Source: Octopus vulgaris
Lineage: Eukaryota
Assembly: GCA_951406725.2 (NCBI GenBank)
Contig: OX597814.1
Coordinates: 59,830,001-59,894,000, forward strand
Direction: 5' to 3'
Length of the DNA stretch: 64,000 nt
In this document: piece after piece, positions 27,620 to 60,172 of the stretch
Position numbering within the stretch: position 1 is the first letter of the stretch
Layout of the letters: each line of letters begins with the position of its first letter
The notes under the pieces: model-generated
What the model saw: the letters and a program-made list of their open reading frames with translations, nothing else
The model's database searches: none
What the model was told of the DNA's origin: nothing
Position numbers and translations under genes: made by a program

Positions 27620-28115
27620 AAGCACAGCATAATCAAAATTATCCGTAATCATCTGGAAATATGATTAATCAAGTGATAGTACATCAATATTTGAATAGTT
27701 ACCATAAATAATGTGGTTGCGAAAACTTATTTTCTTATCATCAGTACAAAGACGGAGGAACAAAGTGTGTTTGACTGAGTTTTTGATTTAATCATTACTT
27801 ATGTGCTTATTTTACAATATAAGATCATACGTCAGTGCAGCATAAATTCATTCAGTAGAAAATAAAATAGTTTAAACATTTACTACTTTAGTGAAAATAG
27901 TCCAGTAAATCGCAATGGAAGTGTGTGCATTGAATAACCGATATTTTGTTTTACAAAATTTCAAAATGTTGTAACATTTTAAATAGTTGTATTTCTACTC
28001 CAGATAAAGTTAAGAAAAATATGCAAATATTTAAATAATATTCTATAATGTAATAATCGATATGATGATAATATTTAAGAACTAAGAAGCTTGCTAGAGC
28101 TTTTTAGTACACTAA

Positions 28116-28346
28116 GGGTGGCGAGCTGGCAGAAACGTTAGTACGCTGGGCGAAATGCTTACCAGTATTTCGTCTGCCGCTCCGTTCTGAGTTCTAATTC
28201 CGCCGAGGTCGACTTTGCCTTTCATCCTCTTGGGGTCGATTAAATAAACAGTAGTTATGCACTGGAGTCGATATAATCGACTTAATCCGTTTGTCTGTCC
28301 TTGTTTATCCCCTCTGTGTGTAGCCCCTTGTGGGCAGTAAAGAAAT
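28116..28346 (+). mobile_element. SINE family B (long-tail monomer)
   Basis: gggtggcgagctggcagaaacgttag..gttctgagttctaattccgccgaggtcgactttgcctttcatcc..gtaaagaaat. Confidence 0.93.
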
Positions 28347-28349
28347 GAG

Positions 28350-28490: not shown

Positions 28491-28525
<35 letters not shown>

Positions 28526-28665
28526 CGGAGATGTACCTGTGCATAGCAAGTGATTTGATCTGAGATCGTGTGCTGAAACGAAAACAATTGCAGCTTGGAA
28601 GGTGTTTGTAAGCCATTTAAGAAACACAGAAAAGCCGTTCGATTCACTTCCACATTTAAGTTTAA

Positions 28666-28716
28666 TTTGTCAAAATATTTTCGTCGCTTTAAGACCGCGA
28701 CCTGTTCACTGACAAA
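28666..28716 (-). ncRNA. Type I minimal hammerhead ribozyme, G3-C8 core variant
   Basis: TTTGTCA-GTGAACA-G-GTCGC(GGTCTTAAA)GCGAC-GAA-AATATT-T/TGACAAA: perfect 7-bp stem I, 5-bp stem II, palindromic stem III. Confidence 0.75.
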
Positions 28717-28737
28717 ATCCGGGATGCAGCATGGAAT

Positions 28738-28788
28738 TTTGTCAGTGAACAGGTCGCGGTCTTAAAGCAACGAAAATACTTTGACAAA
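28738..28788 (+). ncRNA. Type I minimal hammerhead, G3-C8 variant, second copy (one change each in stems II and III)
   Basis: TTTGTCA-GTGAACA-G-GTCGC..GCAAC-GAA-AATACT-T/TGACAAA. Confidence 0.65.
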
Positions 28789-28868
28789 TTAAACTTAAAT
28801 GTTGAAGTGAATCGAACGGCTATCGTGTGTTTCTTAAATGGCTTACAAGCACCTTCCACGCTGCAATT

Positions 28869-28923
<55 letters not shown>

Positions 28924-28942
28924 AATGCATGCACACATACAT

Positions 28943-29023
<81 letters not shown>

Positions 29024-29056
29024 CTTTATTTAAAGCAGCAGAAAATTCAACAAAAT

Positions 29057-29094
29057 CTGTTACTCTGAGTTTCTCGTTGCCGTTCATCAGACAG
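29057..29094 (-). ncRNA. Type I hammerhead ribozyme motif, canonical core
   Basis: CTGT-CTGATGA-A-CG(GCAA)CG-A-GAA-ACTCAGAGT-A/ACAG; GUA site; stem II very short. Confidence 0.75.
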
Positions 29095-29103
29095 TTTTTG
29101 CTA

Positions 29104-29141
29104 CTGTCTGATGAACGGCAGCGAGAAACTCAGAGTAACAG
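29104..29141 (+). ncRNA. Type I hammerhead ribozyme motif, canonical core
   Basis: CTGT-CTGATGA-A-CG(GCAG)CG-A-GAA-ACTCAGAGT-A/ACAG. Confidence 0.75.
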
Positions 29142-29441
29142 ATTTTGTTGAATTTTCTGCTGCTTTAAATAAAGCATATTACTCTACGACTGGTATTTGA
29201 GTACTCTTTTTTCCACCTTGTTTCACATTTATGTGTTTACTCCGGTAGATATATATATATGAATATATATGTGAGTATGAGTTTGATCCCCTTATCGCGG
29301 TGTGATAACTGGTTTTGGTTTGTTTACGTCTCCGTAACAATACAGTTCAACATAGATAGATAAACACTTCTAGGTAGTGGCCCAACATGGCTGCAGCCTA
29401 ACGACTCAAACAAAACAAGTTAATGATATATGTATGTGTTA

Positions 29442-29674
29442 AGGGCGGCGAGCTGGCAGAAACGTTAGCACGCCGGGCGAAATGCGTGGCCGTATTTCGT
29501 CTGCCGTTACGTTCTGAGTTCAAATTCCGCCGAGGTCGACTTTGCCTGTCATCCTTTCGGGGTCGATAAATTAAGTATCAGTTGCGCACTGGGGTCGATG
29601 TAATCGACTTAATCCGTTTGTCTGTCCTTGTTTGTCCTCTCTGTGTTTAGCCCCTTGTGGATAGTAAAGAAATG
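29442..29674 (+). mobile_element. SINE family B, young copy with a 17-bp target-site duplication
   Basis: TSD gatatatgtatgtgtta at 29425-29441 and 29675-29691; B-box-like gagttcaaattcc; central gactttgcctgtcatcctttcggggtcgataaa (Meta/MESC-like domain, inferred). Confidence 0.95.
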
Positions 29675-52894: not shown

Positions 52895-54189
52895 CATACA
52901 TACATACATACATACATACATACATACATACATACACAAACACACATATATGAGAACAAGAAGCACCAAACCATAATATATAGAGCACTATATTACTAGG
53001 GGAAATATGTAGTATAATATATATGGATATAAGGTATAAGGAATTATAGCCTACCAGCTACACTAAATAGTTTAAGACTATAAAAATCACTTGAATGTGC
53101 TGAGACATTCATTTCCGTTTTATTGAAAAAAAATTTATAAAAATATATCTTTTTCGTTTCTTATAAAGTGCATAAATATTAGAGCTCCAAAATGAGATAT
53201 ACCCTAAGATATTTCAAATGTTAATTGTAGAAATATCAAATGATCTTAATTGAAAGTTTGAAACGTAAACACCTGAAGTTAAAAATTTGACACATAAGCA
53301 GCCTGGGAAGACAGAGCATATAGGGAATAAATAACATGAAGAATAATAAAAAGAAAAATATATTAAAAAAAACGATGACGTACACATGTGTTTATGTGTT
53401 GTAAGCTCTTAGGAGCTAGAAATGGGAAGGTACTGAATACCTGTTAATAAGAGAAATGCTCACAGTGCCTGCAATTCCATAATGTTTCTGAGCTAAGGTC
53501 TAAATATAATTATTGCTTACCTTCCATTTCTTCTGCTCAGCTTATATCAATTGTTTCATTCATGCATGAATTTTCCATTTCACGTCTCAATTGGAACATT
53601 TTATAGAGATGAAGTTGTTTTTGCATCATTTTACTGTTGTGGAAGTATGACAAAGATTTTGAAACACAGGACTATTGGTACCATAATAGAAAAACTGCTA
53701 TGTGTGAATTTATTCCTCCATCTCTCTATCTCCAACTCACTTGCTGTACCCCTCTCTCTCTCTCTCTGCCCCTCCTTCTCCCCGTCCTCTCTTTTTGTGT
53801 GCACACATACACACATATATGTATATATGTTTATCATATACAGATTATATGCATATATGTATGTGTATTATAATATATGTATGCATATTATGTATATATT
53901 ATTTACAAGGCCTGGGATTTTGGGTTAGTGAGGAAGGCGATTACATCGATTCCAGTAATAAACTGGTACTTATTTCATGCCTGCTGAAAGGACTAAAGGA
54001 AAAGTAAACCTTAAATCTTCTTTATCCAGTGGTTTAGATCATTACCTCATAAGGATAAATGCAAGTTCATACAAGCGGACATTGATTAATACTATTGTAG
54101 CGTTTCACTCATTCTTTTTAACAAGGCCCTCATTTACATACTTAAACATTCGGATCTCAATTGGACTGATGCTGAAATAACCCTAACAC

Positions 54190-60121: not shown

Positions 60122-60172
60122 AGATAACTGAAGAGATTTCCACTTCGGCATCTGAAACTCAGAGTTTTATCT
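60122..60172 (+). ncRNA. Type I hammerhead ribozyme motif in a short insert ending at (TA)n
   Basis: AGATAA-CTGAAGA-GAT(TTCCACTTCGGC)ATC-T-GAA-ACTCAGAGT-T/TTATCT; perfect 6-bp stem I; same stem III as the 29.1-kb pair. Confidence 0.75.

What the first reader, a model, noticed from the sequence alone, without database searches (positions are those of the whole stretch)
28520..29250. Two adjacent, sequence-unrelated fold-back elements, each made of a divergent pair of hammerhead ribozymes, inserted in one (TA)n/(CA)n array
Seen: two long inverted repeats (28582-28872 and 29024-29174) with no sequence similarity to each other but the same architecture. Each arm holds a complete type I hammerhead close to the centre, the two ribozymes point away from each other, one arm runs further 3' than the other, and both ends abut (TA)n. 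Established: Penelope-like elements carry minimal type I HHRs in their pseudo-LTRs and can make inverted terminal copies; retrozymes have HHRs in direct tandem. Inference: these are non-coding, ribozyme-only palindromic retroelements mobilised by PLE RT/GIY-YIG and targeted to microsatellites. A read-through transcript would fold into dsRNA that masks its own ribozyme, acting as a built-in off switch and an ADAR or siRNA substrate.
Basis: partly seen in the sequence, partly recalled or inferred. Interest (0 to 1): 0.85.

Follow-up and report, generated by a model that had tools for sequence, protein, structure and literature searches.

The report
Back-to-back Penelope retrotransposon ends with ribozymes
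The two hairpins are short back-to-back copies of the ends of two different Penelope-like jumping genes with thousands of relatives in this genome, likely left when one RNA was copied twice during insertion and likely not a self-copying element of their own; one carries a predicted self-cutting RNA with an unusual swapped core base pair.

Summary
The inverted repeats are real. Three of four arms fit a minimal type I hammerhead; the fourth has two point mutations. E1 (28524-28872) and E2 (29024-29246) are 3' ends (pLTR plus tail) of two protein-coding Penelope-like families: E2 Hydra clade, E1 with a Nematis-type endonuclease. Each family has thousands of copies, as single arms and as head-to-head pairs from about 100 bp to over 4 kb. 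Junctions differ from copy to copy; the one heavily repeated junction found (652 copies) rides in a Helitron-like element. So a replicating ribozyme-only palindrome family is not supported; the architecture is published. Not found in my searches: 216 of 223 pairs join one tailed to one untailed arm, both arms nearly always share a haplotype, often neither arm contains the other, and 5' ends stop just upstream of the ribozyme at a promoter-like site, not at the cleavage site. This best fits both cut DNA strands priming reverse transcription on one RNA at two start sites (inferred). E1's family has a G3-C8 core in place of C3-G8. Cleavage, expression and editing are untested.

The parts
28492..28523 (.). 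(AT)16 target repeat, left flank of E1
28524..28581 (-). E1 tail (58 nt), present on one arm only
   Evidence: tail motif has 5,083 exact matches in G000
28582..28721 (-). E1 tailed arm: 3' pLTR end of a Penelope-like family with a Nematis-type endonuclease
28666..28716 (-). E1 predicted minimal type I hammerhead: 7-bp stem I, core GUGAACA (G3-C8) from 28709, extra G, 5-bp stem II, palindromic stem III, predicted cut 28673|28672
   Evidence: cleavage untested
28719..28735 (.). E1 head-to-head junction; the untailed arm reaches about 10 nt further 5', to the promoter-like site where many copies stop
28723..28872 (+). E1 untailed arm; its hammerhead (28738-28788) has substitutions at 28769 and 28779
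28872..29023 (.). (TA)25, (CA)32, (AT)14.5 between the two insertions
29024..29099 (-). E2 untailed arm: pLTR end of a Hydra-clade Penelope-like family; predicted hammerhead 29094-29057, core from 29090, predicted cut 29061|29060
29096..29102 (.). E2 junction; same junction 8 times in G000 on different haplotypes
29103..29174 (+). E2 tailed arm; predicted hammerhead 29104-29141 (core CUGAUGA from 29108, A.A mismatch plus 2-bp stem II, palindromic stem III, predicted cut 29137|29138)
29175..29246 (+). E2 tail (72 nt); in the near full-length copy L211 it continues into the 5' UTR and ORF start
   Evidence: tail motif has 6,369 exact matches
29247..29261 (.). short TA repeat, right flank of E2

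Best explanation
E1 and E2 are truncated head-to-head copies of the hammerhead-bearing ends of two protein-coding Penelope-like retrotransposon families, likely formed independently at each insertion when both strands of a cut TA repeat primed reverse transcription on the same element RNA. Shown: family identity, TA targeting, one tailed plus one untailed arm, matching haplotypes in the two arms, varied junctions, 5' ends piling up just upstream of the ribozyme. Inferred: the GIY-YIG nuclease cuts both strands; one 3'-OH starts at the upstream (untailed) start site and the other 58-72 nt downstream (tailed); both cDNAs run toward the RNA 5' end, often the pLTR promoter start; their ends are joined through short microhomologies. 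The inserted hairpins would be dead ends, and ribozyme cleavage would not be needed to make them. About 0.93 for 'by-product of autonomous Penelope-like elements', about 0.55 for the one-RNA double-priming mechanism.
For: Arms continue into 3' UTRs and RT/GIY-YIG ORFs; L211 has pLTR+tail running into the ORF and an untailed 3' pLTR ending in TA. Pair sizes form a continuum: spacing 39-4,202 nt in 26 head-to-head neighbours among the first 100 E2 motif hits; 11 long pairs all have different junction coordinates. Tailed+untailed in 116 of 120 E2 and 100 of 103 E1 pairs (includes score-ranked loci); in position-ordered tail-anchored samples the partner is untailed in 51 of 52 and 32 of 33. Arm concordance at subfamily columns 0.86-0.96 vs 0.31-0.68 shuffled (E2), 0.75-0.93 vs 0.48-0.77 (E1, columns 34-120); rare non-CpG variants shared in 36 of 145 and 34 of 274 observations vs 1.3 and 2.8 expected. 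Untailed arm reaches >=5 nt further 5' in 26 vs 8 close E2 pairs (p 0.003), so neither arm contains the other. 5' ends: 35 of 121 in a 7-nt zone with 5 in the 30 nt upstream (E2); 36 of 94 in a 10-nt zone with 2 upstream (E1); in E1 the zone lies 20 nt after TATATATA at TCAG, the spacing reported for a rotifer pLTR (PMC3846280, passages). In vitro a Penelope-like protein cuts and extends both strands, starts at two internal sites that delimit the tail, is predicted to be a dimer and does not need ribozyme cleavage (PMC11167929, parts 1-2 of 4).
Against: No priming, start site or transcript was observed. PMC11167929 saw no difference in start site between the strands, which does not by itself predict strict asymmetry. 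In E1 the 5' bias is not significant (15 vs 9, p 0.31); untailed arms under about 18 nt were missed, which lowers E2 to about 26 vs 10 (p 0.011). Later deletions at palindrome centres can create asymmetry and later gene conversion can create shared variants. 6 of 43 E1 and 1 of 27 E2 pairs have arms of different haplotypes (all in score-ranked loci; 0 of 18 and 0 of 17 otherwise). The 5' pile-up site also resembles a 3' splice site. No full-length E1 copy with a 5' pLTR and no intact ORF of either family was among the copies fetched.
Confidence: 0.6

Rival explanations
1. Fold-back self-priming: one cDNA folds on a short palindrome, copies itself, and the endonuclease trims the second arm at the untailed end; later centre deletions randomise the junction.
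For: Proposed in PMC3846280 (passages); PMC8557442 ascribes the tail to endonuclease resolution (passages). Explains strict tail asymmetry and shared variants; junction hot spots sit on short palindromes (CTAG, TGCAGCA).
Against: Predicts the tailed arm reaches at least as far 5' as the other; the opposite holds in 26 vs 8 E2 pairs, and in L199 and L213 about 2-3 kb of ORF lies on the untailed arm while the tailed arm is much shorter. Single arms stop at the same 5' site. Does not explain mixed-haplotype pairs.
Confidence: 0.2
2. Two RNA molecules, held together through the palindromic stem III of the hammerhead, are copied by a protein dimer, one per DNA strand.
For: Stem III homoduplex is predicted at -9.4 kcal/mol for E2, -2.6 for E1; minimal hammerheads are thought to act as dimers (PMC4209133, parts 1-2 of 4); 7 of 70 scored pairs mix haplotypes, in E1 3 in each direction. 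Two RNAs from one source locus would also share variants.
Against: 0 of 35 pairs outside score-ranked loci were mixed; needs an added rule to give one tailed and one untailed arm; Naiad elements make inverted copies without canonical hammerheads (PMC8557442 passages).
Confidence: 0.14
3. One reading: ribozyme-only palindromes replicate as units, mobilised in trans, with double-stranded folding as an off switch.
For: Thousands of short copies; some junctions recur (4 of 50 E2 pairs share one class); hairpins predicted at -226 and -133 kcal/mol.
Against: Junction diversity; recurring junction on different haplotypes and with the tail on either side; continuum up to ORF-bearing pairs; the 652-copy junction is Helitron-like cargo.
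Confidence: 0.04
4. Terminal inverted repeats of a DNA transposon or MITE; the hammerhead-like words are chance.
For: Palindromic shape, TA flanks; no Rfam hit; no covariation within either family.
Against: Arms are ends of RT/GIY-YIG elements; asymmetric tails, 5' truncation and single arms; E2's stems I and III match a published Hydra hammerhead.
Confidence: 0.01

Closest known systems
Penelope-like insertions with an inverted 5'-truncated copy and optional tail (Adineta vaga Pen2a, PMC3846280; Drosophila virilis Penelope, PMC2377424; Penelope-13_HM in PMC8557442 supplement)
   Same: Head-to-head inverted pLTRs of varying length, tail on one end, palindrome at the junction; Penelope-13_HM is listed with a hammerhead on each strand.
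   Different: Here most pairs are under 400 bp and lack the ORF; tails are 58-72 nt rather than 30-40; the passages read call the tail optional and give no pair counts, haplotype test or 5'-end distribution.
Hydra clade (PMC8557442 section 11; Hydra-2_aMil, Hydra-1_Obim)
   Same: E2 family: RWK, DKT, CxCX5C linker, no CCHH, TA target; hammerhead stems I and III and GUA site as in Hydra-2_aMil; unpaired bases at 10.1/11.1 as in many listed Hydra hammerheads.
   Different: Stem II only 2 bp; U4C subfamilies; L211 about 3.6 kb; hammerhead differs from that of Hydra-1_Obim and two E2 words were not found in the supplement text held, where long runs are cut.
Nematis-type endonuclease-bearing Penelope-like elements
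   Same: E1 family: C-terminal GIY-YIG (Pfam), CX3CxxC linker with short spacer and CCHH, resembling the Nematis rows of Fig. S2 by eye.
   Different: No tree was built; about 1 kb repeat-rich 3' UTR; G3-C8 hammerhead core.
Minimal type I hammerheads of metazoan Penelope-like elements (PMC4209133)
   Same: Extra base between 9 and 10.1 (E1), palindromic stem III, mostly not next to an ORF; that paper notes dual motifs 100-700 bp apart on opposite strands and a natural U3-A8 variant.
   Different: E1 has G3-C8, described in the papers read only as a laboratory double mutant with partial activity.
Non-LTR retrozymes (bioRxiv 10.64898/2026.07.22.740005)
   Same: Non-coding, hammerhead-bearing, derived from pLTRs.
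   Different: Defined as head-to-tail tandems thought to replicate via circles; these are inverted pairs or single arms without evidence of their own replication.
L1 twin priming (recalled, no call)
   Same: Two primers from the two target strands on one RNA, joined by microhomology.
   Different: L1 gives an inversion of non-overlapping RNA segments; here the same segment appears twice, so the RNA would be copied twice.

Membership tests
Endonuclease-bearing Penelope-like element | Single ORF with RT and C-terminal GIY-YIG in longer copies | tested here: met
   L214 530-aa fragment with YVDD and Pfam GIY-YIG 23.1 bits (cut-off 22.6); L199, L211-L213 ORFs match Hydra motifs by eye, with no relevant Pfam hit; no Pfam RT hit in 4 of 4
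Endonuclease-bearing Penelope-like element | pLTR at both ends with tail leading into the ORF | tested here: met
   E2: L211. E1: only 3' ends found
Endonuclease-bearing Penelope-like element | 5' truncation, inverted copy, tail on one end | tested here: met
Hydra clade (E2) | RWK, DKT, CxCX5C linker, no CCHH, TA target, hammerhead | tested here: met
   second Cys is Phe in L199, L212, L213
Hydra clade (E2) | Phylogenetic placement | not tested
   no tree built
Nematis clade (E1) | CX2-5CxxC linker plus CCHH, short spacer | tested here: met
   by eye against Fig. S2
Nematis clade (E1) | RT groups with Nematis in a tree | not tested
   no reference sequences on hand in the script box
Type I hammerhead | Core with 3-8 pair, GAAA, NUH and stems I-III | tested here: met
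   3 of 4 window arms; family: 65 of 78 E1 arms GUGAACAG; E2 27 CUGAUGA, 18 CCGAUGA, 13 CCGACGA of 66
Type I hammerhead | Rfam model match | tested here: not met
Type I hammerhead | Covariation or excess conservation | tested here: inconclusive
   E1 subfamily changes fall in loop II (0.285 non-majority) but core (0.034) is near downstream sequence (0.044); E2 core 0.014 (position 4 left out) vs 0.031; no compensatory pairs seen
Type I hammerhead | Self-cleavage | not testable with these tools
   no excess of 5' ends at the predicted site: 2 vs 4.1 per bin (E2), 2 vs 1.85 (E1)
Non-LTR retrozyme | Head-to-tail tandem units each with a hammerhead | tested here: not met
   neighbours within 5 kb among first 100 hits: E2 26 head-to-head, 1 tail-to-tail, 2 same-strand; E1 9 head-to-head only
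Self-replicating palindromic element | Shared junction and haplotype with unrelated flanks | tested here: not met

The most novel reading that the evidence does not exclude
Penelope-like elements integrate by an obligately asymmetric double priming: the two cut DNA strands start reverse transcription at two fixed sites on one RNA (or on a pair dimerised through the hammerhead), usually near the 5' end of the element's own promoter-started transcript. This would explain tails, inverted copies and the mass of solo hammerheads in animal genomes in one step. One family also carries a natural G3-C8 hammerhead core in about 7,800 motif matches.
Probability: 0.5. Interest if true: 0.62.

Novelty: new member of a known kind. 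Interest (0 to 1): 0.4.

Why it matters
How Penelope-like elements make inverted copies and tails is named as open in PMC8557442 and PMC11167929. Two high-copy families give countable rules (one tailed plus one untailed arm, same haplotype, neither arm containing the other, 5' stop at a promoter-like site) that an existing in vitro system can test directly. A natural G3-C8 core would mean descriptor searches fixed on CUGANGA miss whole families. Thousands of 70-150 bp hairpins are a plausible source of double-stranded RNA, untested here. As a new replicating element the finding does not stand.

Tried and rejected
Rfam scan: no hammerhead, only microsatellite-driven microRNA hits. Ribozyme cleavage shaping insertions: no excess of 5' ends at the predicted site. 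Cap-derived extra G at the 5' pile-up: G precedes 19 of 34 truncated E1 arms and 4 of 9 E2 arms, but most can come from the partner arm, so inconclusive. Spliced template with a first exon: 2 of 60 E1 and 3 of 70 E2 truncated arms had an 8-nt or longer match upstream in the element, all short or simple repeat; a very short exon or one upstream of the E1 reference is not excluded. Expression: no RNA holder listed; contigs of runs only guessed to be RNA cover both families but cannot show strand, start, editing or this locus. ORFs beside single arms were mostly unrelated elements (mariner-like, LINE, other Penelope-like). The 7 of 70 E1 copies with one junction first looked like a replicating palindrome; they share more than 2 kb of flank and all 20 fetched end in a hairpin plus CTAG. 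A G3-C8 descriptor hit at -30844 had no relatives among the loci held. (bacterial promoter scan) was uninformative. Earlier findings: none in three look-ups. Paper searches found no natural G3-C8 report; 37, 60, 69, 86 no double-priming model for these elements; 59 nothing on these families. The paper on hammerhead variants of Penelope-like elements (PMC5785218) was not held and may already list G3-C8; the bioRxiv supplements were not seen.

Full report
Observation. The window holds two inverted repeats, 28582-28872 (137-nt arms, 94%) and 29024-29174, unrelated to each other, separated and flanked by TA and CA repeats. Each has a tail on one arm: 28524-28581 (E1) and 29175-29246 (E2). A relaxed type I hammerhead descriptor hit three of the four arms, among 7 hits in the window against 0-2 in 10 shuffles. 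Rfam found no hammerhead. E1 reads stem I (7 bp), GUGAACA, an extra G, stem II (5 bp), GAAA, palindromic stem III, UU; stems I and II are its minimum-energy fold (z -2.59). Its right arm has two substitutions. E2 reads CUGAUGA, an A.A mismatch, 2 bp and a tetraloop, GAAA, palindromic stem III, GUA; as a monomer the hammerhead fold is unfavourable (+1.0 vs -5.1 kcal/mol) while the stem III homoduplex is -9.4.

Both are large families. Exact motif counts in G000 (2.8 Gb): E2 ribozyme 3' half 8,991, E2 tail 6,369, E1 core 7,816, E1 tail 5,083; reversed-pattern controls 0. Motifs lying about 20 nt upstream of the ribozyme occur only 159 (E2) and 445 (E1) times; these patterns are longer, so the comparison is rough. 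Of the first 100 E1 core matches, with positions 3, 7 and 8 left free, 92 read GUGAACA, 95 have G3 and C8, and none has C3 and G8.

They are ends of protein-coding Penelope-like elements. Upstream of E1 lie about 1 kb of 3' UTR and an ORF with an RT YVDD motif, a CX3CxxC linker and a GIY-YIG domain (Pfam 23.1 bits), resembling the Nematis rows of Fig. S2 of PMC8557442 by eye; no tree was built. Upstream of E2 lies an ORF with RWK, DKT, CxCX5C and no CCHH, the marks of the Hydra clade (PMC8557442 section 11). L211 shows pLTR and tail running into the ORF start and an untailed 3' pLTR ending in TA. The published Hydra-2_aMil hammerhead has the same stems I and III, and many listed Hydra hammerheads have unpaired bases at 10.1/11.1; all 34 rows of that table begin with CUGA, from a search that assumed it.

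Not a replicating palindrome. Among the first 100 E2 motif hits, 26 neighbours within 5 kb are head-to-head, 39-4,202 nt apart. Long pairs carry ORF pieces and 11 of 11 have different junction coordinates. In position-ordered, tail-anchored samples from contig C1 (70 copies each; 8 E1 duplicates dropped: 6 Helitron-borne, 2 local), 52 of 70 E2 and 33 of 62 E1 copies have an inverted partner within 1.5 kb; close pairs fall in 42 junction classes of 50 and 28 of 31. The window's E2 junction occurs 8 times, the tail on one side in 3 and on the other in 5, on different haplotypes. One E1 junction occurs 652 times; the copies examined share over 2 kb of flank, and 20 of 20 end in a hairpin plus CTAG, a Helitron signature (recalled). 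TA repeats follow 69 of 70 tailed and 48 of 52 untailed E2 ends, and 37 of 62 and 18 of 33 E1 ends.

Rules of the pairs. One arm is tailed and one is not in 116 of 120 E2 and 100 of 103 E1 pairs from all 452 loci held, score-ranked ones included, and in 51 of 52 and 32 of 33 position-ordered pairs. Arms share subfamily variants (0.86-0.96 vs 0.31-0.68 shuffled in E2, leaving out column 76, the tail boundary; 0.75-0.93 vs 0.48-0.77 in E1 columns 34-120, while column 4 near the junction showed no excess) and rare variants (36 of 145, 34 of 274; 1.3 and 2.8 expected) (74 and 77 pairs). Mixed pairs are 6 of 43 (21.5 expected) and 1 of 27 (15.4 expected), none outside score-ranked loci. The untailed arm reaches further 5' in 26 vs 8 E2 pairs (p 0.003; about 26 vs 10 allowing for missed short arms, p 0.011) and 15 vs 9 E1 pairs (p 0.31). 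5' ends pile up just upstream of stem I and drop off beyond: 35 of 121 in 7 nt vs 5 in the next 30 nt upstream (E2), 36 of 94 in 10 nt vs 2 (E1); there is no excess at the predicted cleavage site. In E1 single arms stop there too, 20 nt after TATATATA at TCAG, as for the TATA and initiator of a rotifer pLTR. In E2 the site is CCATT, also present before the Hydra-2_aMil hammerhead. Both sites also resemble splice acceptors, and in D. virilis an intron ends at stem I; no first-exon sequence was found joined.

Mechanism. Simple fold-back needs one arm to lie within the other; often each has sequence the other lacks. Two independent RNAs would mix haplotypes more and do not give strict asymmetry. 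Both cut strands priming on one RNA, at the two start sites that delimit the tail, accounts for all the rules, and matches in vitro results for the anole element PAc: both strands cut and extended, two internal start sites, ribozyme cleavage dispensable. It requires the RNA to survive the first copy (absence of RNase H in these RTs is recalled). This is inference; fold-back with later deletions and a two-RNA dimer remain open. A read-through transcript is predicted to form a long hairpin (-226 and -133 kcal/mol), but these copies appear to be dead ends, and expression and editing could not be tested.

Comparison and novelty. Head-to-head pLTRs with a tail on one end are published (PMC3846280 passages; PMC8557442 passages, section 11 and supplement parts 2, 3, 54; PMC2377424 passages), as are dual hammerheads on opposite strands (PMC4209133 parts 1-2 of 4). 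Natural 3-8 covariation is reported as U3-A8 (PMC3088659 passages); G3-C8 appears as a laboratory mutant (PMC3884650 passages). Searches found no natural G3-C8 and 37, 60, 69 and 86 no double-priming model, but the library is partial and PMC5785218 was not held. Also read: bioRxiv 10.64898/2026.07.22.740005 (part 1 of 5 and passages) and PMC6765202 (passages). Verdict: new members of a known kind, with testable mechanistic statistics and an unusual ribozyme core; interest 0.4.

Noticed in passing
L417-L436 (e.g. G000:C1:46965407-46968428): About 2-kb non-autonomous Helitron-like element (starts TC, ends hairpin plus CTAG before T) carrying one E1 palindrome and the tail of a third hammerhead family; 652 exact junction matches.
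   Followed up: partly
window 60122-60170 (+); L089, L090, L130, L223: Third hammerhead family (CUGAAGA core, stem III as in E2); L089, L130 and L223 show long-plus-short inverted pairs like E1 and E2.
   Followed up: partly
window 28113-28347 and 29440-29674: Two 235-nt copies (88%) of a SINE-like repeat on either side of the locus; the second is flanked by a 17-nt direct repeat.
   Followed up: no
window 34232-33971 (-) and 54024-54185 (+): Fragments similar to the E1-family ORF (39-47% identity) and weakly to the E2-family RT (28%).
   Followed up: no
window 45680 (+) and 30844 (-): Lone descriptor hits (U3/G8 with a 6-bp stem II; G3/C8); no relatives among the loci held.
   Followed up: partly
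E2 family: Subfamilies trade non-canonical features: U4 goes with an A.A mismatch at 10.1/11.1, C4 with A.G, A.C or A-U; none of the 12 commonest combinations has U4 with A-U.
   Followed up: partly
L137-L138 (G000:C25:40.07-40.08 Mb); L202: E1 copies multiplied inside larger tandem duplications.
   Followed up: no
L209 (G000:C3:57622300-57624500); L070: An E1 palindrome whose two arms share a 10-nt duplication sits next to an E2 piece in one TA run; L070 holds a tailed-tailed pair beside an untailed-untailed pair.
   Followed up: partly
L136, L138, L215, L134: Other Penelope-like ORFs (Neptune-like and a further Hydra-like one, by eye) and a 1,164-aa LINE-type ORF lie beside or around E1 and E2 copies.
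   Followed up: no
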